Positions 1 through 27,506 of a stretch of DNA of 38,439 bases are shown piece after piece. How positions within the stretch are numbered: the stretch's first letter is position 1; every line of letters begins with the position of its first letter. The notes under the pieces were generated by a model, which saw nothing but the letters and a program-made list of their open reading frames with translations, had not been told where the DNA came from and searched no databases. Made by a program: the position numbers and the translations under genes. The stretch is taken from positions 1-38,439 of the forward strand of contig CAYSOC010000048.1 of assembly GCA_964432445.1 (NCBI GenBank), read 5' to 3'. The DNA is from an uncultured Anaerolineaceae bacterium (GTDB lineage: Bacteria > Chloroflexota > Anaerolineae > Aggregatilineales > UBA2796).

Positions 1-703
1 CGAGATTTTGAAGTCAGATCAGACCTGCTGCTATAACCCGGAACATACTTCAGACAGTCATGTCGAGGCCGGCAAGGAACAAATTATCATTTTGCTCTTC
101 AGCAAAGGCATGTATACGGCCAGTACACCTAGCCCCAATACAGTCTGGCTGGAACTCTATTTCACCCAGGTCAAGGTAGTCAGCAAGCCGGAAGTGACCG
201 TAGTGGCCTTCCCGTCAGGCACAGGCAATCAACCTGTCATCAATGTAACCTGGGATAACGCCGCCAGTTATTGCGAGTATGTGGGAAAACGTTTGCCAAC
301 AGAAGCTGAATGGGAACATGCCGCACGCGGAACTGAAAACTTCCAGTTCCCCTGGGGAAATACCGCCAAAACCAATGGTGTTATTCCAGCGAACTGGAAT
401 AGCAAGGCTGTCGAAAATGTTGGTAGCTACCCAGCGGGTCAGTCGCAGTATGGCGTTCTGGACATGGCGGGCAACGCCTGGGAGTGGGTGAGCGACTGGT
501 ATCAGGCAGACTATTATGCGACCAGTCCCAAACAAGACCCAACCGGGCCAGCAAACGGATTGCAGCGTATTCGGCGTGGCGGCAGGTTCATGCAACTGAA
601 CGAAACCGGGACATTTGAATATACGACGACCTATCGGCTGTCACAGGCAGGAGATACGGAAAACCAGTCGTTCGGCTTTCGTTGTGCGAAGGATGTTTCC
701 TGA
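1..703 (+). CDS. FGE-sulfatase (formylglycine-generating enzyme family) domain protein, probably 5'-truncated by the window edge
   Basis: FGE/SUMF1-domain motifs are present: [29 protein letters not shown], then [11 protein letters not shown], then a C-terminal RGG(R/S)F...FGFRC. The reading frame is open to nucleotide 1, so the true start is probably upstream. Confidence 0.6.
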
Positions 704-732: not shown

Positions 733-1488
733 TTATTTCGCGGCTTCAGGTGTTGCGGCAGTCGTCGAAAACAACGATGGATCGACAAACGGCTTGACTG
801 GCACTAGCGCGCTTTTTCCGATTGCTTTGCGGATGGCTTCCGCACCGGGATATTTGGTCGGTTCTTTTTCCATTGCGCCCAAGCCGCCTTCTTTTCCATC
901 CAGAAGGGGTTGCAATACTGGAACCGCATCGGAGACATTGAAGAATTTGGGTTCTCCTAGCGGAATGTTGTTTGGAAGCTGATTGGCGGTCTGGCGAACC
1001 AGTGCGAGGTGTTGGCCTTCGATGACCGCGACCTGTGCCGCCGTTGCCGCCAGCAAGGGTTGGTCCAGTTCAGCGAAACGGCGTGTCGCCGCCAGATATG
1101 CCCCGACAAAAACGGTTTCGGCAACCGAGGTCACTGTGCCAAACGAGATCGCGCTTTTGAATACGCCCTGGGGGAAGTAGAACGCCTCAAGCAGGGCTTT
1201 ACCCCCATTGGCATTCAGAAATTCCAGATGGATCAATTCCTCTTCCAATGCGGCTTTGATGTAGGCTAATTGGGGAGTTGTGAACCTGATTTTGCTGTTG
1301 AGCGCCTGAAAATAATGGGTGCAGGCAAAGGTCTCGGCAGTAGCGGCAATATTCAGGATGGTGGGAATATCATCACCTGCCGTCTGTGACAGGTTGTGCA
1401 GGCCAAACATGCCACTAAAACCAACTGTCGAAGCCGTAGCGAGTAGGGTGCTGCCTTTTAGGAAGTCTCGACGATTTATCTGGCTCAC
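733..1488 (-). CDS. Tat-signal ferritin-like domain protein (secreted)
   Basis: The N-terminus carries a twin-arginine motif (MSQINRRDFLKGSTLLATAS). The rest resembles the ferritin-like (Ferritin_2/DUF4439) family, with E/H-containing helices (EEELIHLEFL, VIEGQHLAL). Confidence 0.5.
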   Translation of the reverse strand: MSQINRRDFLKGSTLLATASTVGFSGMFGLHNLSQTAGDDIPTILNIAATAETFACTHYFQALNSKIRFTTPQLAYIKAALEEELIHLEFLNANGGKALLEAFYFPQGVFKSAISFGTVTSVAETVFVGAYLAATRRFAELDQPLLAATAAQVAVIEGQHLALVRQTANQLPNNIPLGEPKFFNVSDAVPVLQPLLDGKEGGLGAMEKEPTKYPGAEAIRKAIGKSALVPVKPFVDPSLFSTTAATPEAAK

Positions 1489-1534
1489 GGTTACCTCTTC
1501 AATATTTGAGATAGTGACATATTTACCACACTGT

Positions 1535-1551
1535 TGTTGAAAAATTCAACA
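1535..1551. promoter_or_regulatory. Perfect 7-3-7 palindrome TGTTGAA-AAA-TTCAACA about 50 bp upstream of the ferritin-like gene start; candidate operator
   Basis: I read an exact inverted repeat in the 5' region of the minus-strand gene that starts at 1488. It has Fur/PerR-like box geometry but not the canonical sequence. Confidence 0.25.
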
Positions 1552-1692
1552 TACCCCTACATTAACTGAGCCATATTTCTGTAGGGGATGCTGTGATTGG
1601 GCGAATCAATCCAGAGACTGTCTGAAAAGGATTGACCCCTATCCCCAACCCTTTCCTCACAGGCAGGGAAAGGAGGTTAAAACCAGGCGTGG

Positions 1693-1722
1693 AAGTCCCT
1701 CCTCGCTGGCGGGGAGGGACTT
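1693..1722 (-). terminator. 10-bp GC-rich stem-loop (AAGTCCCTCC / GGAGGGACTT) 33 nt downstream of the kinase-WD40 gene stop
   Basis: Perfect inverted repeat with a 10-nt loop. On the minus-strand RNA it is followed by GGUUUUAACC, a weak U tract. Two weaker 7-bp hairpins (CCCTACA/TGTAGGG and CCTTTCC/GGAAAGG) lie nearby. Confidence 0.3.
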
Positions 1723-1754
1723 AGGGTGGGGTTTATTGAACCTCCCAGACGGTC

Positions 1755-4700
1755 TCAGCGTGGTGGCGTCCCGGCTGGCAGAGGTCCACCGCCAGTCTGT
1801 GGGTGTGCGCGTTCTTCTGACGTGCAAGCGGCCAGGCGGAAACGCCCGCGTTCTTCACAGGTGAACGGACGAATGAACCGATTTTTCAACGTCCAATCCT
1901 TGAGTTCCGTGAGACTTTGCGGCGCGATCTGCCAGACGATTACATCTCCATCCAGCGAGGTTGCCAACCCCAATTTGTTATCTGGCGTGAAACGCGCCTG
2001 CCACACTTCGGTACGATAGGCGATATAGTTGCCGACCAGTTCCTGTGTTTCCAGATCGAACAGGAAAAGGTCACCGCCGTTAGACCCGATCAACAGCAGT
2101 TTATCATCCGAACTCAGCGAAACCGAGCGGAGCGCTGCCCGTGCAAGATTGTAGGTAGCGCGAGGTTGTTGCGGTTTATCCACGTCCCAGACTACGGCAA
2201 AATCGTCACCACCAGCTACAACGAAAAATTTTCCGTCGTGTGAGTAGACAATATCGTGTACGAAGAAATGGTTGCCGCCAATGTATTTCTGGACAGGCTT
2301 ACCCGTCTCCATATCCCAACGTGTCACCGTACCGTCACCTTCGCCAGAAAGGACATATTTTCCGTCCGGGCTGATAGTGATGTTATAGAAGGGCATTGAT
2401 CCCTGAAAGACATTCAATGGGCGTTCGGATTCCAAATCCCAGAGGATAAGCGCTGCACCAAACGAGAGCGTGACCGCGCGTTTGCCATCCGGCGTGATTG
2501 CCAGTCCGGTCAGTGCGCTGATCGGAGACTCATAGCGCCGGATCATTTTTCCGGTTTCTGCGTCCCAGAGCGTCATGGCGTTATCGCCGGGACCAAAAGG
2601 ATTGCCCGAAGTGGTCACGAAGCGTTTGCCATCGGGCAGGAACGCCGCCGAGAAAATAGTGCTTTTCGCGCCCTCAAACGCCCGTATCTCTTTACCCGTA
2701 GCAATATCCCAGATATGGATCAGGTTTGGTCCGAAGTATGGTTTAAAGAAACTCGGAGAGCCGGAACTAGTAACGGCGGTCTTTCCATCCGGGCTGATCG
2801 CCAGCGCCCATTGACCTGTTCCCGGCGGCGAGAACATGCGGCGTACTTCGTTGTGGCTGAACAATTCCCAGTCGCGGGCGAAGGCATCTGCCCCGGCGGT
2901 GATTACGCTGCGGCTGTCTGGCGAGAACGCCATATCTGTGATCGGCGCATTGGGGTACAGGAAACGGCTGATTTCGATACCGTTCTGCAAATCCCAAACC
3001 ATGATATAGCTCTCGAAGCCATAGGTCACGGCAAAACGTCCATCCGGGCTGATGGCGACCCGATACGCAAAGCGGTCATAGGGCGCGGGTATCCGGCGGA
3101 TGATCTCGCCCGTGTCCAGATTCCAGTAAATGACAGCGCCTTCGATCCCGCCGGAAAGCGCGGTTTTGCTATCCGGGCTATAGGAGAGGCTAAACACGCC
3201 GCCCTGATGCCCCTTGAGATGGCGCAATTCCTGCCCGGTTTGCAAATCCCACAGCACAACGTCGGGCGCGTCAATCAGTGGCGAAGTTGGACCAGCAGGC
3301 CCAGTACCCGTCAGCGCTGTTTTACCATCGGGGCTGACGGCAATGGAATAATAAAAGTCACGCGAGGCATTGAAGCGGCGTATTTCTTCGCCCGTTTTGG
3401 TATTCCATAATACCAGTGCCGATTTGCCCGTTTCGAGGTCGTTATTGGCGGCAAGGATCGCATTCCCATCCGGTGTGAGTGCTATGGCGACCACCTGCCC
3501 GACATGCTTCCCAATCTGACGCAGTTCCTTGCCGCTGGCAATATCCCAGACCCGTAGCGTACCATCAGCGGAGGCAGAGTAGACCAATTTACCATCAGCA
3601 GAGAAAGCCAGATCGGTGAGGGTGTTGGTGTGTCCTTCCAACCGCTGGAGCATCTTGCCGTCTGTCCGATCCCACAGCACCACCGCATAATCTCCCGACG
3701 CGGGCGAACTGTTCAGCGGTTGGAAAGTTGGTCTGCCTTTATACAGGTTCGATCCCGGTGTGGTCGGTCCACCGCCAGACGCGATCAGCTTCATATCCGG
3801 GCTGAGTGCCACTGCCCACAGTGGATTCGTCGTCTGTATCTGGCGGCGTGTCCCCGGCAGCGATGCGGTTTGCAAGAGCATTCGTTTGGATTCATTTGGC
3901 GGCGCGTCGGTCTTGTTGGCTTCCAACGCTAGCGCCAGCGTGAGATCGAGATCATTTTCATTCAGGGTTTGCTGTGCCGATGCCGAGAGCGCCAGACTTT
4001 GCACCTCTATCGCACGATTTTCAGCGATGGCGCGTGCCTGTTGTTCGGCTTGGCTACGGCTGAAAGCAAAAGCAGTCAGGCCAAGCGAAATAACTACCGC
4101 CGCCGCCATGACCCCGACCAGCCCTCGCAGCGTTTGCGCGGCGCGACGTTCCAGATTTTTTTCGCGCGCTTGCCGCTCCTGTTCGGCGGCTTCTTGGGCT
4201 TTACGTTCCTGTAGACTGGTTTGCAGGTATTCGTTTTCAAAAGCAGTCAGCGCCAAATCAGTCGTTTTTGTCCACTCGTCGAACTGCGTCAGGCGTGAAC
4301 CACGCAGCAGGAAACTCGGATCGCGTTTGGCAGTCTGCCATTCGTTCGCCGCAGCGGAGAGTTGGCGTTGTGTCCGAATATCGCCACGACCAGCATCCAG
4401 CCATTCCCGAAGCTGCACCCATTCCCGAATCAGGGCTTCGTGCGCGACTTCTACGGTAGGTTCGCGGGTCTGTGCATCATGGTCGAAAGTGAACAGCCGG
4501 AACTTGCCAAAATTATCGAGGATGGTTTGCAGCGCATCCTTGTCCTTCGCAACGGCTGCCAGTTCGGAACGGAGCGCCCGCCGCCGGGTATCTTCCACCC
4601 CTTCACCCAACGTAACGAGGCGCAGGAAAACCTGTCGTGCCACGCTCTTCTGTGCTGGACTGAGCGCGTTATAGAGTTCATCGGCACGGCGGGCGACTGC

Positions 4701-6380
4701 ACCAGTCACACGCCCGATGTTCTGATAACTTTCCAGCCTGAGCAGGTTTGCCGTGCGACGCTCAAAGAGTTCTGTGAGCGCATATTGCAACAGTGGGAGC
4801 GTACCCGGTTCTTCGCGTACATCGGTGATAATATCCGCCACGAGGTTCGGCGCGACCTGTAACCCGGCACGTTCGGCAGGCTTGATGATCGCCGCTTCCA
4901 GTTCTTCAGTTGTGAGGGGGATAACCACTTCGGTACGGTTGCGAATCAATGCCGCGAACGCTTCATAGAGCAGTGGGCGATCATAAAAATCGGCGCGCAA
5001 CGTCACGATCAGATGCAGACGTGGATCGCTTTGTACTGCGTTCGTCAACAGTTCAAGGAAGCGCACGCGGGCAGCTTCATCATCCAGCAGGGTAAAAACT
5101 TCTTCAAATTGATCGATTAACAGGAATAAGTGTTCATTTTCCGGCAGAATCGCCTTGAGCGCGTTTTTCAGCCCATCACCATCCTTGCGCAATATTTCCG
5201 CGAGATCAGCAGGAGGGTTGATCGCTACGCTCAGGAGTGCCGTTTCGAGAGTCTGGAACGGATCAACGCCGGGGGTCAGTTCCGCATAGAACCATTTTGC
5301 CGAACCGGGCAACGCGCCGCGCTTCAACGCCGGGATCACGCCTGCTTTGACTACGCTGGATTTACCGCTTCCGCTTGGCCCGACCACCGCAAGGAAATTG
5401 GAATGGCGTTCCTTGCCATCCAGACGCTCGATTAGATATTTCACCAGCGCTTCGCGTCCGAAAAAATCGCCCGCGTCCGCTTCATCGAAGGCGCGCAAGC
5501 CTTTATAGGGGTTGACGATGGTTGTGAAGTCCACCACAGCGAACCCGGTTTCAATGGGGGTATCTGCCGAAAGCGCCTCGCGGAAGTTCTTCGCCAGTGC
5601 TACTGCATCCGGGTAGCGATCCGCTGGCAGTCGCGCAGTTGCCCGCTGGATGAAGGCGCGCAGTTTTGGCGAGATTGGCGAATTAGCGGGAATATCCAGC
5701 GCATTGCCTTGCAAATGTTTCAGGAACATCTGCGAAGGGGTCAGCCCTTGAAACGGATGATTCGCAGTCAGGACTTCATAGATGACGATCCCGAAACTGT
5801 ATAAATCCGTATGCGCTCCGATTTCCCCGGCTGTGATCTGTTCTGGTGCGATATAACCGGGTGAGCCGCTTACATCGTCCTCCTCTTCACCATCCTTCGT
5901 TGTCGCTCTTGCGATGCCGAAATCTGTCAGATAGGCGTTGCCATCATCATCGAGCAGGATGTTATCCGGTTTAATATCGCGGTGAATGATGTTGTTGCGA
6001 TGCGCCAGAGAGAGAGCCGACGAAATCTGATCCACCAGTTTCAGAGTAGCTTCCGGCGTAAACGCGCCTTTGTTGCGCAACGTCGCGTAGACGCTCCCGG
6101 CGCGCAGATAACGCATTACCAGATATGCGCCTTCGGGGTCACGCCAATAGTCAATCAGCGGGACGATGTGCGGGTGTTCGAGTCGGGCGACGAGTTGCGC
6201 CTCAGTCTCGAAACGGCGGATAAAATCGGGACGACTGGCGTATTCAGGAAGGATCACCTTAATGGCGATTTCACGATCTACCGAAAGCTGTCGCCCGCGA
6301 TAGATAGCACCAAAACCGCCTTCACCGATCTTGTCTTGCAGGGCATACCCTTTGATGTTTAGTCCGGCTAAACTGCTCAT
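1755..6380 (-). CDS. Multidomain Ser/Thr protein kinase - STAND-like P-loop NTPase - coiled coil - single TM helix - about 14 WD40 repeats
   Basis: Kinase motifs GEGGFGAIYRG, AIK, HRDIKPDNILL, DFGIA, SGSPGYIAPE. An FGRE motif followed by Walker A GPSGSGKSS and Walker B LLIDQFEE. A charged coiled-coil segment (ERKAQEAAEQERQAREKNLERR). A hydrophobic helix (LVGVMAAAVVISLGLTAFAF). Many WD dipeptide blades (VLWD, RVWD, VLWN, IYWN, VWDL, IWDI, TLWD, ILWD, TRWD, VVWD). The long ORF opens at 6434, but the Met at 6380 (MSSLAGLNIKGY...) lies 14 residues before the glycine loop, the typical spacing. Confidence 0.85.
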   Translation of the reverse strand: MSSLAGLNIKGYALQDKIGEGGFGAIYRGRQLSVDREIAIKVILPEYASRPDFIRRFETEAQLVARLEHPHIVPLIDYWRDPEGAYLVMRYLRAGSVYATLRNKGAFTPEATLKLVDQISSALSLAHRNNIIHRDIKPDNILLDDDGNAYLTDFGIARATTKDGEEEDDVSGSPGYIAPEQITAGEIGAHTDLYSFGIVIYEVLTANHPFQGLTPSQMFLKHLQGNALDIPANSPISPKLRAFIQRATARLPADRYPDAVALAKNFREALSADTPIETGFAVVDFTTIVNPYKGLRAFDEADAGDFFGREALVKYLIERLDGKERHSNFLAVVGPSGSGKSSVVKAGVIPALKRGALPGSAKWFYAELTPGVDPFQTLETALLSVAINPPADLAEILRKDGDGLKNALKAILPENEHLFLLIDQFEEVFTLLDDEAARVRFLELLTNAVQSDPRLHLIVTLRADFYDRPLLYEAFAALIRNRTEVVIPLTTEELEAAIIKPAERAGLQVAPNLVADIITDVREEPGTLPLLQYALTELFERRTANLLRLESYQNIGRVTGAVARRADELYNALSPAQKSVARQVFLRLVTLGEGVEDTRRRALRSELAAVAKDKDALQTILDNFGKFRLFTFDHDAQTREPTVEVAHEALIREWVQLREWLDAGRGDIRTQRQLSAAANEWQTAKRDPSFLLRGSRLTQFDEWTKTTDLALTAFENEYLQTSLQERKAQEAAEQERQAREKNLERRAAQTLRGLVGVMAAAVVISLGLTAFAFSRSQAEQQARAIAENRAIEVQSLALSASAQQTLNENDLDLTLALALEANKTDAPPNESKRMLLQTASLPGTRRQIQTTNPLWAVALSPDMKLIASGGGPTTPGSNLYKGRPTFQPLNSSPASGDYAVVLWDRTDGKMLQRLEGHTNTLTDLAFSADGKLVYSASADGTLRVWDIASGKELRQIGKHVGQVVAIALTPDGNAILAANNDLETGKSALVLWNTKTGEEIRRFNASRDFYYSIAVSPDGKTALTGTGPAGPTSPLIDAPDVVLWDLQTGQELRHLKGHQGGVFSLSYSPDSKTALSGGIEGAVIYWNLDTGEIIRRIPAPYDRFAYRVAISPDGRFAVTYGFESYIMVWDLQNGIEISRFLYPNAPITDMAFSPDSRSVITAGADAFARDWELFSHNEVRRMFSPPGTGQWALAISPDGKTAVTSSGSPSFFKPYFGPNLIHIWDIATGKEIRAFEGAKSTIFSAAFLPDGKRFVTTSGNPFGPGDNAMTLWDAETGKMIRRYESPISALTGLAITPDGKRAVTLSFGAALILWDLESERPLNVFQGSMPFYNITISPDGKYVLSGEGDGTVTRWDMETGKPVQKYIGGNHFFVHDIVYSHDGKFFVVAGGDDFAVVWDVDKPQQPRATYNLARAALRSVSLSSDDKLLLIGSNGGDLFLFDLETQELVGNYIAYRTEVWQARFTPDNKLGLATSLDGDVIVWQIAPQSLTELKDWTLKNRFIRPFTCEERGRFRLAACTSEERAHPQTGGGPLPAGTPPR

Positions 6381-6495
6381 TATGGACTTTTCCCCGTGAG
6401 GCATCGAATTGAATCGCCACAAATAGTAACGCAATCCCTTGAAATACGCTCCACTGGAATTGTTTCAAAATTATGATACTTCCACTAACATCCAG

Positions 6496-7554
6496 CTACG
6501 GAGTTAGTGGCTGGCTGGTTTGCACTGCCTTAATCACCAATAGGATAGCGTCAGTGACCTGCTGTGCATACTGTTCATTGCCGAGGATCGAGCCATGATC
6601 CGCCCCTGCGATCACGCGCGTAATGCTGTTTGAAGAATACATGCTGATTTTGGCATGAAATTCTCGCAATGTCGGAACCAGTTCCATCATCTTGTTTGTT
6701 TCAGATGCCCATAGGATGACAACCGGGAGCGTTCCCAGATTTTCAGCCGTTGCGGAGGCTTCGGTAAGCGATTTCATCACCGGGATTTCTTCGGCATAGG
6801 TGGTATCAAAAGTGCGGTTGGTAGAATGTAGTGCCGCCAATTCTGGCACAATTTCCGATGGATAACCCCATTTGCTAAAACTACTGCTATCGGATAGACG
6901 CACGATTCCCGTTCGATACGCTATCCATAGAAACATCTGCAACATATCGTTTGATCTTTTCCAATCCTCAAACTCGCTCTGACTGGCAAATTTCGCTGGA
7001 ATGACCAGTCCGCTGTCGACCAGAACAACGCCCGCTACTTCTTTTGGATACTGTGCTGCGTATATACGTGTCCAGATGCCACCATAGGAGTGTCCCGCCA
7101 TAACGTAAGGGGCAGGTATCCCCGCCTGCTGCAAAAGGATATGGAGTTCACTTGTGATTGTGAGGGCATCGCGCGCATCGGAAACTGATTCGCTCCAGCC
7201 TAGTCCGGGGCGATCATAGGCGCAGACTTGCGTTTGTCTGGAAAGCTGATTCTGAACCCGATACCACCACAGAGATTCGGCAGAGAGGCCACCTTGCAAA
7301 ACGACAGTCGGGCTCCCCTTACCTGTGCAGATAATGTGTATCTGATGACCATTCACAGTAAACAATTGTCCGCGCGGTGAAAAATTGCGTTTGTCTTGTT
7401 CGGTGGTAATGCTCTGATATGCCACGCCCAACACGATGAGCAAAAGTAAAATAAGGACGAACCATTTTAGAAAACGCCTTATGATAAAAAGGCAACCCCG
7501 ACGTTGTACGGTCTTTTTTTGCTTGGGTAATGTTTCACTTATACTTGTAGTCAA
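6496..7554 (-). CDS. Membrane-anchored alpha/beta-hydrolase (esterase/lipase-like)
   Basis: N-terminal TM helix (FVLILLLLIVLGVAYQSI), a nucleophile elbow GHSYGG, and later D/H residues consistent with the alpha/beta fold. Confidence 0.65.
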   Translation of the reverse strand: MTTSISETLPKQKKTVQRRGCLFIIRRFLKWFVLILLLLIVLGVAYQSITTEQDKRNFSPRGQLFTVNGHQIHIICTGKGSPTVVLQGGLSAESLWWYRVQNQLSRQTQVCAYDRPGLGWSESVSDARDALTITSELHILLQQAGIPAPYVMAGHSYGGIWTRIYAAQYPKEVAGVVLVDSGLVIPAKFASQSEFEDWKRSNDMLQMFLWIAYRTGIVRLSDSSSFSKWGYPSEIVPELAALHSTNRTFDTTYAEEIPVMKSLTEASATAENLGTLPVVILWASETNKMMELVPTLREFHAKISMYSSNSITRVIAGADHGSILGNEQYAQQVTDAILLVIKAVQTSQPLTP

Positions 7555-7707
7555 TTTTCGTTTTCCTTCATCGTGGCCTATAGTATGCCTGCTTATTGTA
7601 TTTTATTGTGAGATTATGAATGTTGTCCGGTTGAGCCTTCCAACAACAATACAGGCAACAAGGCACAAGGCTTTTGGGTAGTTTTAGATTGTAGTTCTGA
7701 AAGGATC

Positions 7708-26915: not shown

Positions 26916-27506
26916 ATGCAGACCAAAGCACAGTTGATGAATGTCGAAGAATTCCAGGCGTTTACAGAGCTGCCAGAGAATCGGGACAAACATTTTGAAC
27001 TAATCGAAGGAGAAGTTATCGAAGTGCCATCGCCAAAAGAAATTCATGCTTGGATAGTTGCAGAGATAGCTTTTTTGTTGAGATTGTTCCTTAAAACACA
27101 AAATATAGACGGAACAGTTTATCACGACAACCTCGATTTCATCCTCGGCGAAAACATTGTTCTTAAACCCGATGTTAGCTATACCTCGGCAGCACGCAAG
27201 CCTAAAATTTTGGATTATCCAACTGTTGCGCCCGATTTAGTAGTAGAAGTGGTTTCACCGTCCAATACGCTGGATGAATTTGAAGCCAAAATGAATATTT
27301 TTTTCGCGCATGGTACGCAACTTGTTTGGTTGGTATATCCTAAGCAAAAGCTGATACGTGTCTACAAACCAATTCCCGGCTCGGAAAAACCAGATATTAA
27401 AACATTTACTGCAAAAGATATGATAGATGCTGGCGACGTACTGCCCGGTTTTAGCGTTTTGGTAGAGAGTTTATTTCCCGAACAGGCCAAAGATGAATCC
27501 ACCTGA
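26916..27506 (+). CDS. Uma2-family (DUF820) putative restriction-endonuclease-like protein
   Basis: The Uma2 architecture is present: EEFQAFTELPENRDKHFELIEGEVIEV, YHDNLDFILGENIVLKPDVSYTS, PDLVVEVVSPSN (the PD-(D/E)xK core), KMNIFFAHGTQLVWLVYP. The local GC is much lower than in the flanks. Confidence 0.8.
   Translation: MQTKAQLMNVEEFQAFTELPENRDKHFELIEGEVIEVPSPKEIHAWIVAEIAFLLRLFLKTQNIDGTVYHDNLDFILGENIVLKPDVSYTSAARKPKILDYPTVAPDLVVEVVSPSNTLDEFEAKMNIFFAHGTQLVWLVYPKQKLIRVYKPIPGSEKPDIKTFTAKDMIDAGDVLPGFSVLVESLFPEQAKDEST

What the first reader, a model, noticed from the sequence alone, without database searches (positions are those of the whole stretch)
1755..6380. 1,542-aa kinase - STAND NTPase - transmembrane - double WD40 propeller protein with predicted split topology
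A eukaryotic-type Ser/Thr kinase with all catalytic motifs is fused to a P-loop NTPase carrying the FGRE...GxSGSGKSS...hhhhDQFEE pattern seen in bacterial STAND/NACHT-like ATPases. A roughly 60-aa charged coiled coil follows, then one TM helix preceded by RRAAQTLRG (positive-inside, implying N-in), then about 14 WD40 blades, enough for two seven-bladed propellers. That predicts a cytoplasmic kinase and ATPase with extracytoplasmic WD40 propellers. This receptor-kinase layout resembles Mtb PknD (kinase-TM-NHL propeller) but carries an added STAND switch. Such STAND modules are also the core of several antiphage sensors, so a role in signalling or defence is open.
Basis: partly seen in the sequence, partly recalled or inferred. 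Interest (0 to 1): 0.5.

Follow-up and report, generated by a model that had tools for sequence, protein, structure and literature searches.

The report
Membrane-spanning kinase–STAND–WD40 receptor protein
This gene encodes a large single-pass membrane protein with a protein kinase and an ATP-driven switch inside the cell and a double beta-propeller predicted outside; it is a typical member of a very large, already named but experimentally unstudied bacterial family (nSTAND1).

Summary
A 1,541-aa ORF (minus strand, 1755-6380) encodes four parts. First, a PknB-like Ser/Thr kinase with all catalytic motifs. Second, a full-length nSTAND1 STAND NTPase (Pfam PF20703, E 1e-121). Third, a charged helix and one hydrophobic segment (residues 753-773). 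Fourth, 14 WD40 blades forming two propellers (AlphaFold2 pLDDT 91).

The split topology has indirect support:
- The hydrophobic segment recurs at the same position in 101 of 120 full-length homologues. Its hydrophobicity is conserved; its sequence is not.
- Lys+Arg in the flanks average 5.1 (N side) against 1.6 (C side).
- 68 of 70 complete nSTAND1 proteins from other phyla have the segment, whether the N-terminus is a kinase, caspase, TIR or SARP domain.
- Three relatives carry ABC-type solute-binding domains, an extracytoplasmic fold, after it.

One clade of 19 homologues has precisely deleted the segment.

The gene is not novel in kind. The NTPase region has more than 20,000 relatives among 50%-identity cluster representatives, and the kinase version is common in Chloroflexota. 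No partner gene is conserved, no defence gene lies nearby, and PADLOC matches only the kinase.

Most likely it is a transmembrane, nucleotide-gated receptor kinase. Its ligand and role are unknown. That the family as a whole places its sensor outside the cell is not mentioned in the papers I could search.

The parts
1755..6380 (-). Complete CDS, 1,541 codons plus stop; a solitary gene
   Evidence: ORF list, translation and start region. Identical JGI gene call P0001. The N-terminus matches the homologue consensus.
5613..6347 (-). Hanks-type (PknB-like) Ser/Thr kinase domain, residues 12-256; predicted cytoplasmic
   Evidence: Pfam Pkinase E 2e-53. All catalytic motifs present. Top Foldseek match is M. 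tuberculosis PknB, TM-score 0.87 normalised to the target, 32% identity.
4317..5510 (-). nSTAND1 STAND NTPase module (nucleotide-binding, helical and winged-helix parts), residues 291-688
   Evidence: PF20703 E 1.7e-121 over the full profile. AAA_16 and NACHT score above their gathering cut-offs. AlphaFold2 pLDDT is about 85-95, and the order of secondary-structure elements fits a P-loop core followed by a helical part and a winged-helix-like part (my reading of the element list).
5355..5381 (-). Walker A motif GPSGSGKSS, residues 334-342
   Evidence: Seen directly in the sequence. Residues G334-S342 other than S338 are invariant in 52 sequences; S338 is conserved in at least 90%.
5100..5126 (-). 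Walker B motif FLLIDQFEE, residues 419-427
   Evidence: Seen directly in the sequence. D423, Q424, E426 and E427 are invariant.
4125..4244 (-). Charged (E/R/K/Q-rich) helix leading into the membrane, residues 713-752
   Evidence: AlphaFold2 predicts one helix at 713-761. Composition: 11 D+E and 9 K+R in residues 700-752.
4062..4124 (-). Predicted single transmembrane helix GLVGVMAAAVVISLGLTAFAF, residues 753-773
   Evidence: Kyte-Doolittle 2.32 and the only such segment in the protein. Insertion-energy sum about -0.5 kcal/mol. Present at the same position in 101 of 120 homologues with a positive-inside bias, and in 68 of 70 nSTAND1 proteins from other taxa. It lies within a helix in the second model but has low pLDDT in the first.
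3798..4061 (-). Post-membrane helical linker (continuous helix to about residue 807, then two short helices), residues 774-861
   Evidence: AlphaFold2 helices at model positions 2-48, 52-62 and 70-80, with pLDDT 84-97. L817 is invariant and A821, L835 and A839 nearly so.
2862..3797 (-). WD40 blades 1-7 (first propeller; boundary approximate), residues 862-1173; predicted extracytoplasmic
   Evidence: Blade parsing. Pfam WD40 and beta-propeller families. AlphaFold2 model. Assigning blades 1-7 to the first propeller is an inference from the count of 14.
1926..2861 (-). WD40 blades 8-14 (second propeller; boundary approximate), residues 1174-1485; predicted extracytoplasmic
   Evidence: Same as for the first propeller. 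Foldseek matches to the 14-blade Nostoc propeller 2ymu, Apaf-1 and Aip1 span about 650-750 alignment columns.
1758..1925 (-). C-terminal tail with the conserved motif W..(A)NR(Y).R..TC.ER..(Y)R....C, which holds the only two cysteines of the protein (C1508, C1519), residues 1486-1541
   Evidence: Cysteine positions. W, N, R, C, Y and C are invariant or nearly so. Exactly two Cys in the C-terminal part in 64% of TM-bearing homologues against 5% of TM-less ones. A disulfide is an inference.

Best explanation
The gene encodes a single-pass (N-in, C-out) membrane protein of the nSTAND1 family.

Shown or strongly supported:
- An intact PknB-like Ser/Thr kinase and a STAND nucleotide-binding oligomerisation module lie N-terminal to one membrane helix.
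- A rigid-looking helical stalk runs into and out of that helix.
- Fourteen WD40 blades, forming two seven-bladed propellers, lie C-terminal to it and therefore outside the cytoplasm.

Inferred mechanism:
- The outside propellers bind a macromolecular ligand, such as an envelope component, a neighbouring-cell surface molecule or a foreign particle.
- The sensor cannot fold back onto the NTPase as it does in cytosolic STAND proteins. The signal must therefore cross the membrane through the helix and stalk or by ligand-driven clustering.
- This permits nucleotide exchange and oligomerisation of the nSTAND1 modules under the membrane.
- Oligomerisation brings the kinase domains together for trans-autophosphorylation and phosphorylation of cytoplasmic targets.

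The role is more probably signalling than abortive-infection defence. The gene stands alone in housekeeping surroundings. Relatives built on the same chassis carry regulatory outputs (SARP DNA-binding domains) and small-molecule-binding ectodomains.
For: Domains. Kinase, nSTAND1 and WD40 were identified by Pfam. The motifs are present. The AlphaFold2 models have pLDDT 82 (residues 1-900) and 91 (residues 760-1541).

Membrane helix:
- It is the only hydrophobic segment, with Kyte-Doolittle 2.32 and an insertion-energy sum of about -0.5 against +9.2 elsewhere.
- No N-terminal signal peptide: the kinase begins at residue 12.
- Hydrophobicity, but not sequence, is conserved about 420 aa after the P-loop in 101 of 120 homologues.

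Orientation:
- K+R in the 15-residue flanks average 5.1 on the N side and 1.6 on the C side. The N side exceeds the C side in 97 of 101, with four ties and never the reverse.
- The kinase and the NTPase both need cytoplasmic ATP (established knowledge).
- Post-TM domains in relatives L033 and L042 are Bmp/PnrA (E about 1e-40), and in L050 SBP_bac_1. These folds are known from extracytoplasmic solute-binding proteins.
- In TM-bearing homologues the C-terminal part has exactly two Cys in 64% and an even number in 80%. In the TM-less clade the figures are 5% and 58%, at twice the Cys density.

Family-wide feature:
- 68 of 70 complete nSTAND1 ORFs have the segment next to the domain end, including 37 of 37 with a kinase. 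They come from Chloroflexota, Acidimicrobiia, Streptomyces, cyanobacteria, Myxococcota, Proteobacteria and Acidobacteria.
- N-terminal modules vary: kinase, caspase, TIR and SARP.

Signalling rather than defence:
- No neighbour is shared among five loci, and I saw no recognisable defence system near the gene.
- PADLOC matches only the kinase domain.
- The blades are diverged from each other (mean 28% identity), so this is not a highly repetitive, recently amplified array.
Against: No dedicated topology predictor and no experiment was available, so topology rests on hydropathy plus comparative inference.

The first AlphaFold2 model gives pLDDT below 50 for residues 760-778.

A monophyletic clade of 19 homologues deleted the TM helix yet kept the kinase, NTPase and WD40 parts. 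The same sensor module can therefore apparently work in the cytoplasm. This weakens any argument that the WD40 part is intrinsically an outside domain.

The conserved C-terminal Cys pair is also present in 68% of those TM-less proteins, so it is not specific to export.

How a STAND module could be controlled by a sensor on the other side of a membrane has no characterised precedent that I know of. Oligomerisation, kinase activity and the ligand are all unshown.

The family's describers place nSTAND1 in counter-invader conflict systems (PMC8195603). Caspase and TIR outputs in relatives fit that view.
Confidence: 0.55

Rival explanations
1. The architecture and topology are the same, but the protein is an immune or conflict sensor of the kind proposed for nSTAND1 by its describers. 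The outside propellers would detect an invader or competitor, for example adsorbing phage particles, predatory cells or toxins. NTPase-driven assembly would turn on the kinase as an effector that shuts down or kills the cell, or alerts its neighbours in a filament.
For: PMC8195603 describes nSTAND1 as a central NTPase of predicted counter-invader systems and lists S/T/Y kinases among the N-terminal modules. Relatives on the same chassis carry caspase and TIR domains. The kinase domain matches the PADLOC kinase models PD-T4-6 and mad6 with E down to 4e-74. The family is concentrated in filamentous or multicellular lineages. Paralogues occur in tandem (L044), and the WD40 part evolves faster than the NTPase.
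Against: I saw no recognisable defence system in the 38-kb window or in four other loci. The PADLOC hits are generic kinase-domain similarity; the NTPase and sensor match nothing beyond P-loop noise. The blades are old and diverged (mean 28% identity), not hypervariable repeats. No diversity-generating retroelement signature lies near the 76% homologue despite an adjacent reverse transcriptase gene. Relatives with SARP outputs and solute-binding ectodomains look regulatory.
Confidence: 0.28
2. The hydrophobic segment is not a membrane-spanning helix and the whole protein is cytoplasmic. The segment would then be a buried oligomerisation helix or a peripheral membrane anchor, and the WD40 propellers would sense a cytoplasmic ligand as in Apaf-1.
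For: A clade of 19 close homologues lacks the segment and keeps everything else. WD40 repeats attached to STAND NTPases are classically cytosolic, as in Apaf-1, which is a Foldseek match. The first AlphaFold2 model has low confidence at residues 760-778.
Against: The segment has 21-22 consecutive uncharged residues with Kyte-Doolittle 2.3 and a favourable insertion-energy estimate. Its sequence is free to vary while its hydrophobicity is kept, which is typical of lipid-facing helices. The charge asymmetry across it is strong and consistent in 97 of 101 proteins. Relatives have extracytoplasmic solute-binding folds after it. Cysteine parity differs between TM-bearing and TM-less homologues.
Confidence: 0.1
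3. The protein is a cell-envelope growth or division kinase analogous to PknB. The WD40 propellers would replace PASTA domains as a cell-wall-fragment or envelope-protein sensor, and the NTPase would serve mainly as a scaffold.
For: The kinase domain is closest to PknB/Stk1 (NCBIfam NF033483 E 9e-82 over the kinase part; Foldseek top hits are PknB). The topology matches that of PknB. Envelope-related genes lie in the window: a glycosyltransferase, an M23 peptidase and an HtrA-like protease.
Against: It scores 275.9 bits against the 450-bit cut-off and has no PASTA domains. Many paralogues occur per genome or contig, and gene context is not conserved; neither suits a core growth regulator. The NTPase motifs are invariant, which argues for a working switch.
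Confidence: 0.07

Closest known systems
nSTAND1 family of STAND NTPases (Pfam PF20703; named in Kaur, Iyer, Burroughs & Aravind 2021, eLife, PMC8195603)
   Same: Full-length, very strong profile match (E 1e-121). The NPY.GL..F...D..FFGRE lead-in, the GPSGSGKSS Walker A and the hhhhDQFEE Walker B are all present. The layout is an N-terminal output domain, here a kinase, with C-terminal repeats. The taxa are the same: Chloroflexota, actinobacteria, cyanobacteria and myxobacteria.
   Different: Nothing differs in kind; this is an ordinary member. The main text of the defining paper, as far as I could search it, does not mention a membrane helix after the NTPase. Here that helix is near-universal in the family.
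Kinase-TM-WD40/TPR Ser/Thr kinases of Planctomycetota ('Ca. Uabimicrobium amorphum', PMC11032199)
   Same: A cytoplasmic Pkinase domain, a single membrane span, and long WD40 arrays predicted to be periplasmic.
   Different: That study reports no NTPase between the kinase and the membrane helix (the terms 'NTPase', 'AAA' and 'STAND' as a domain do not occur in it). I did not test whether those proteins contain nSTAND1.
Mycobacterium tuberculosis PknD and PknB receptor kinases
   Same: A Hanks kinase inside, one TM helix, and an extracytoplasmic sensor (an NHL beta-propeller in PknD, PASTA domains in PknB). The kinase fold is closest to PknB.
   Different: They have no STAND NTPase, and their sensors are NHL or PASTA rather than WD40. 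Scores fall far below the NCBIfam equivalog cut-offs: 97.9 against 839 for PknD and 275.9 against 450 for PknB.
Apaf-1 and bacterial Apaf-1-like STAND proteins with WD40 sensors (PMC13581612)
   Same: A STAND NTPase followed by two WD40 propellers. Apaf-1 is a strong structural match for the propeller pair. The presumed logic is that ligand binding at the propellers licenses nucleotide-dependent oligomerisation.
   Different: The NTPase is nSTAND1, not NB-ARC/AP-ATPase (NB-ARC E 0.24). A membrane helix separates the NTPase from the propellers, so the sensor cannot dock on the NTPase. The output is a kinase rather than a CARD or caspase.
Antiviral STAND systems (Avs1-5, bNACHT) catalogued in PADLOC
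   Same: The general tripartite plan of effector, STAND NTPase and repeat sensor.
   Different: No PADLOC model matches the NTPase or sensor. There is no defence-island context. Avs sensors are cytosolic, whereas this sensor is predicted to be outside.
Thermomonospora curvata PkwA (kinase + 7 WD40; cited in PMC5587647, PMC1262709)
   Same: A bacterial Ser/Thr kinase fused to WD40 repeats.
   Different: From my own knowledge of the protein, not tested here, PkwA is about 740 aa with one propeller and no STAND NTPase.

Membership tests
nSTAND1 (PF20703) | Profile match above the gathering threshold over the whole model | tested here: met
   406.8 bits against a cut-off of 27.1, profile positions 1-378 of 379, residues 291-688. 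On the isolated region the score is 410.6 bits.
nSTAND1 (PF20703) | Walker A (GxxGxGKS/T) and Walker B (hhhhD followed by acidic residues) intact | tested here: met
   GPSGSGKSS at 334-342 and FLLIDQFEE at 419-427. They are invariant or nearly so in 52 aligned sequences.
nSTAND1 (PF20703) | N-terminal effector or output domain and C-terminal superstructure-forming repeats | tested here: met
   Pkinase at the N-terminus and 14 WD40 blades at the C-terminus. PMC8195603 lists S/T/Y kinases among the N-terminal modules.
STAND NTPase superfamily | P-loop core followed by helical and winged-helix domains | tested here: inconclusive
   AAA_16 and NACHT score above their gathering cut-offs. The AlphaFold2 element order (strands 329-334, 364-368, 418-422, 455-462 and 483-485 with intervening helices; helices 513-587; then helix-helix-strand-strand at 604-645) is consistent with this by my reading. 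No solved STAND structure was recovered by sequence or profile search. The fold search was swamped by kinases.
STAND NTPase superfamily | Nucleotide-dependent oligomerisation switch | not testable with these tools
   This needs biochemistry: SEC-MALS or cryo-EM with and without ATP analogues, and Walker mutants.
Hanks-type Ser/Thr protein kinase | All catalytic motifs (Gly loop, VAIK Lys, HRD, catalytic Asn, DFG, APE) and the kinase fold | tested here: met
   Motifs. Pkinase E 2e-53. Foldseek match to PknB with TM-score 0.87 normalised to the target. Catalytic activity was not tested.
PknB/Stk1 PASTA kinase (NF033483) | Equivalog score cut-off and extracellular PASTA repeats | tested here: not met
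   275.9 bits against a cut-off of 450, with the match confined to residues 12-280. No PASTA family is among the listed Pfam hits.
PknD (NF009651) | Equivalog score cut-off and an NHL beta-propeller ectodomain | tested here: not met
   97.9 bits against a cut-off of 839, with the match in the kinase region only. The ectodomain is WD40, not NHL.
Avs / bNACHT antiphage STAND systems | Match of the NTPase or sensor to a catalogued defence model; defence-island neighbourhood | tested here: not met
   PADLOC on residues 286-1541 gives only P-loop-length hits to mad3 and mad8 (E 3e-4 and 0.012). The neighbours have housekeeping or miscellaneous functions in five loci.
Apaf-1-type AP-ATPase (NB-ARC) | NB-ARC domain match | tested here: not met
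   NB-ARC E 0.24, 11.1 bits against a cut-off of 23.5. Only the propeller pair resembles Apaf-1.
Single-pass N-in/C-out membrane protein | One hydrophobic span of about 20 residues, no cleavable signal peptide, positive-inside charge bias | tested here: met
   The span is conserved in 101 of 120 homologues and in 68 of 70 wider family members.
Single-pass N-in/C-out membrane protein | Experimentally or algorithmically (DeepTMHMM/TOPCONS) determined topology | not testable with these tools
   No topology predictor or experiment was available. Indirect support comes from solute-binding ectodomains in relatives and cysteine parity.

The most novel reading that the evidence does not exclude
nSTAND1 proteins as a whole may be transmembrane NLR-like receptors. 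Their ligand sensor would sit outside the cell and their nucleotide-gated oligomerisation module and output domain (kinase, caspase, TIR or SARP) inside. The two sides would be coupled through one membrane helix and a rigid charged stalk. This would combine receptor-kinase or Toll-like outside-in sensing with NLR-type assembly, and no such STAND mechanism has been characterised. The clade that deleted the helix would be a natural experiment in moving the same sensor from outside to inside.
Probability: 0.45. Interest if true: 0.65.

Novelty: new member of a known kind. Interest (0 to 1): 0.35.

Why it matters
The gene itself is one more copy of a very common, named family, so it adds little on its own.

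What may matter is the family-level pattern that this window makes visible. STAND/NLR proteins are regarded as cytosolic sensors whose sensor domain docks on the NTPase. Here, and in nearly all nSTAND1 relatives examined, a membrane helix separates the two, and some relatives carry bona fide extracytoplasmic ligand-binding folds.

If the predicted topology is right, tens of thousands of bacterial proteins use a STAND switch to read signals from outside the cell. These proteins are concentrated in filamentous or socially living lineages. That is a signalling logic nobody has dissected, and it is relevant to how NLR-like immunity and receptor signalling relate. None of this has been tested experimentally.

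Tried and rejected
1. Solved relatives of the NTPase. phmmer and a 9-sequence profile against PDB sequences found only Walker A-length matches to ABC, UvrA and SMC proteins. No solved nSTAND1 structure is detectable by sequence.

2. Foldseek of the 1-900 model against the PDB returned only kinases, so it says nothing about the NTPase fold.

3. Conserved partners. The neighbourhoods of the window, the 76% homologue and three further homologues share no gene. An APH-family gene lies near both the window gene and the 76% homologue, but the two are unrelated copies (BLASTP E 0.019).

4. Diversity-generating retroelement. A reverse transcriptase gene lies about 2 kb from the 76% homologue, but no direct or inverted repeat of at least 40 bp (template/variable pair) exists there.

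5. Defence membership. PADLOC hits are to the kinase domain only.

6. Promoter and terminator scan of 1400-7800: counts equal the shuffled expectation.

7. Highly repetitive, recently amplified WD40 array: rejected, since blade-to-blade identity averages 28%.

8. Organism names through cluster look-up: no names were returned. Taxon assignment rests on the annotated homologues (Chloroflexi/Anaerolineae), and no close genome match was found (best 47-53% identity).

9. Literature. I found no experimental study of a kinase-nSTAND1-TM-WD40 protein.
Full report
THE OBSERVATION

The minus strand carries one long ORF with its stop codon at 1755-1757 and an ATG at 6380. An in-frame ATG at 6403 and a TTG at 6434 lie upstream. 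Two things support the 6380 start. The homologue consensus begins M..L.G..IKGYEL, exactly as this protein does. An identical 1,541-aa protein was called independently on a JGI metagenome contig (P0001).

DOMAINS

Pfam finds a protein kinase at residues 12-256 (E 2e-53). It finds the family 'Novel STAND NTPase 1' (nSTAND1, PF20703) at 291-688, covering profile positions 1-378 of 379 with E 1.7e-121. It also finds many WD40 and beta-propeller families between about 894 and 1490.

The kinase has every catalytic motif: GEGGFG, IAIK with K41, HRDIKPDN, DFG and APE. Its best solved structural match is M. tuberculosis PknB, with a TM-score of 0.87 normalised to the target and 32% identity.

- nSTAND1: E 1e-122.
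- AAA_16: 36.9 bits, above its cut-off of 32.6.
- NACHT: 27.4 bits, above its cut-off of 26.7.
- NB-ARC: not significant.

They are invariant or nearly so across 52 aligned sequences.

An AlphaFold2 model of residues 1-900 has pLDDT 82 overall and about 85-95 through the NTPase. It shows alternating strands and helices around the Walker motifs, then a helical block (513-587), then a helix-helix-strand-strand unit (604-645). I read this as the helical and winged-helix parts of a STAND module. That reading is mine. No solved STAND structure could be recovered by sequence or profile search, and the fold search returned only kinases.

THE MEMBRANE HELIX

GLVGVMAAAVVISLGLTAFAF (753-773) is the only strongly hydrophobic stretch in the protein.
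- Its Kyte-Doolittle 19-residue mean is 2.32.
- A simple sum on the Hessa biological hydrophobicity scale gives about -0.5 kcal/mol, against +9.2 for the best window anywhere else (scale values from memory).
- There is no N-terminal signal peptide.
- The second AlphaFold2 model puts most of the segment inside one continuous helix running to residue 807, with pLDDT 84-96.
- Upstream, one predicted helix (713-761) carries a very charged E/R/K/Q-rich stretch. I can confirm a charged helix of about 40 residues but not a coiled coil.

COMPARATIVE EVIDENCE FOR TOPOLOGY

No dedicated topology predictor was available, so I tested the prediction by comparison.

First, close homologues. Among the 120 best full-length homologues (mostly about 1,500 aa and 40-45% identical, from Chloroflexi and Anaerolineae metagenome bins), 101 have one hydrophobic segment about 420 residues after the P-loop. 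Its sequence varies freely while its hydrophobicity is kept. Lys+Arg in the 15 residues before it average 5.1, against 1.6 after it. The N flank is richer in 97 cases, equal in 4 and never poorer. This is the positive-inside pattern expected for N-in.

Second, the wider family. A scan of one genome per species found nSTAND1 genes in Chloroflexota, Acidimicrobiia, Streptomyces, Saccharothrix, cyanobacteria, Myxococcota, Proteobacteria, Acidobacteria and Pirellulaceae. Of 70 complete ORFs, 68 have a hydrophobic segment within a few dozen residues of the end of the nSTAND1 domain, including all 37 with a kinase. The N-terminal module in the others is a caspase, a TIR domain or a SARP DNA-binding module.

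Third, ectodomains in relatives. In three relatives the domain after the helix is not WD40. It is a Bmp/PnrA-like domain (E about 1e-40) in two and an SBP_bac_1 solute-binding domain in one. These folds are known from extracytoplasmic binding proteins of ABC transporters.

Fourth, cysteines. The query has only two cysteines, both in a conserved C-terminal motif. In TM-bearing homologues the C-terminal part has exactly two Cys in 64% and an even number in 80%. In homologues without the helix the figures are 5% and 58%, at twice the Cys density. This fits disulfide pairing and cysteine economy in an exported domain, but it is soft evidence.

Taken together, I put the N-in/C-out topology at roughly 80-85%.

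THE TM-LESS CLADE

Nineteen of the 120 homologues lack the helix through a clean deletion. Their sequence runs ...ERQAREQRK | AVEMQSLALTAN..., and the flanking sequence aligns with the query on both sides. In a neighbour-joining tree of the NTPase region they form one pure clade, which implies a single loss.

They keep the kinase, NTPase and 14 blades. This cuts both ways. The helix behaves as a discrete, removable module, as a membrane anchor would. But the propellers can evidently also serve in the cytoplasm.

THE PROPELLERS

Sequence parsing gives 14 blades. The AlphaFold2 model of 760-1541 has pLDDT 91.2 and pTM 0.89, with 57 strands. Its best solved matches are the 14-blade Nostoc propeller 2ymu, tandem-propeller ribosome-biogenesis factors, Aip1 and Apaf-1, aligned over 650-750 columns.

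The blades are only 28% identical to one another on average. This is therefore an old, differentiated array, not the near-identical repeat type linked to rapid diversification. Across homologues the NTPase is the most conserved part and the propellers the least. Against the 76% homologue, the NTPase is 86% identical and the propellers about 69%.

GENOMIC CONTEXT

The window looks like ordinary chromosome. Genes recognised by Pfam include:
- alpha/beta hydrolases and a ferritin-like protein;
- a glycosyltransferase, an M23 peptidase and an HtrA-like protease;
- a thioredoxin-NHL protein and an aldehyde dehydrogenase;
- an ABC exporter with a TetR-family regulator.

There is no phosphatase, FHA protein or recognisable defence system. 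The 76% homologue and three further homologues sit among entirely different genes. The gene is therefore a self-contained unit. PADLOC matches only the kinase domain and nothing in residues 286-1541 beyond P-loop noise.

HOW COMMON IT IS

The NTPase-plus-helix region has 20,792 relatives at E<=1e-30 among 50%-identity cluster representatives, and 35,939 at E<=1e-10. The kinase version alone supplied at least 120 full-length hits. Several contigs carry two copies, for example L044 in tandem.

WHAT IS ALREADY KNOWN

- nSTAND1 was named by Kaur et al. (PMC8195603). They describe it as a central NTPase of predicted counter-invader systems with N-terminal modules that include S/T/Y kinases. I found no mention of a membrane helix after it in that paper's text.
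- A study of Planctomycetota kinases predicted many kinase-TM-periplasmic WD40 proteins (PMC11032199).
- A 2012 survey of prokaryotic metacaspases recorded transmembrane helices in metacaspase architectures (PMC3501461).
- A 2026 survey of STAND phylogeny labels nSTAND clades and notes WD40 sensors without discussing topology (PMC13581612).
- I found no experiment on any protein of this architecture.

INTERPRETATION

The best-supported reading is a transmembrane, nucleotide-gated receptor kinase.

Shown:
- Intact kinase and NTPase motifs.
- One membrane-type helix that is conserved across the family.
- A double propeller C-terminal to the helix.

Inferred:
- The propellers lie outside and bind a ligand.
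- The signal crosses by the helix and stalk or by clustering.
- The nSTAND1 modules then oligomerise and bring the kinases together for trans-phosphorylation.

I favour a signalling role over abortive-infection defence. The gene has no defence neighbours, and sister architectures couple solute-binding ectodomains to SARP DNA-binding outputs. Caspase and TIR outputs elsewhere in the family keep the conflict-system reading alive; I give it about 0.28. A wholly cytoplasmic protein remains possible at about 0.1.

VERDICT

The gene is a new member of a known kind. The one point of wider interest is that the nSTAND1 family as a whole appears to place its sensor across the membrane from its STAND switch. 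That point is computational, belongs to the family rather than to this locus, and still needs a topology experiment.

Noticed in passing
window 7708-9387 (+): A 559-aa protein matches two domains of the eukaryotic major vault protein: Vault_3 repeat (E 1.3e-10) and MVP_shoulder (E 1.3e-6). A bacterial vault-protein-like gene lies two genes upstream of the kinase gene (an alpha/beta hydrolase gene lies between them), on the opposite strand. It is also present on the identical JGI contig L002.
   Followed up: no
homologues P0009, P0015, P0019, P0020, P0022, P0027-P0030, P0032, P0035-P0038, P0041, P0043, P0047, P0052, P0066 (e.g. L084 6001-10545): One clade of kinase-nSTAND1-WD40 proteins has precisely deleted the membrane helix while keeping all other domains. 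It forms a single pure clade in a tree of the NTPase region, and it has more cysteines of relaxed parity in the WD40 part.
   Followed up: yes
L033 (ORF from 7122), L042 (ORF from 7158), L050 (ORF from 7173): nSTAND1 relatives from Acidimicrobiales and Chloroflexia carry Bmp/PnrA-like or SBP_bac_1 solute-binding domains after the membrane helix instead of WD40. At least L033 has a SARP (Trans_reg_C + BTAD) DNA-binding N-terminus. These look like one-component transmembrane transcription regulators built on a STAND switch.
   Followed up: partly
window 2-703 (+): An ORF open at the left edge of the window ends in an FGE-sulfatase domain (profile positions 87-255 of 255, E 7e-38). FGE-sulfatase domains are common sensor modules of bacterial kinases and STAND proteins, and the N-terminal part of this gene lies outside the window.
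   Followed up: no
L001 16876-23047 (-): Next to the 76%-identical homologue lies a reverse transcriptase gene (RVT_1) followed by two large ORFs (493 and 1,069 aa) with no Pfam hit. No template/variable repeat pair was found, so it is not an obvious diversity-generating retroelement acting on the WD40 gene.
   Followed up: partly
window 13818-15842 (+): A 674-aa fusion of a thioredoxin/AhpC-like domain with NHL beta-propeller repeats.
   Followed up: no
window 26916-27506 (+): A Uma2-family putative restriction endonuclease-like gene (E 1e-31) lies among metabolic genes.
   Followed up: no
L044 (ORFs from 7959 and 13513): Two kinase-nSTAND1-TM paralogues lie in tandem in an Ilumatobacteraceae genome. 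P0054/P0058 and P0085/P0109 report the same longest-contig lengths, which suggests further multi-copy loci.
   Followed up: no
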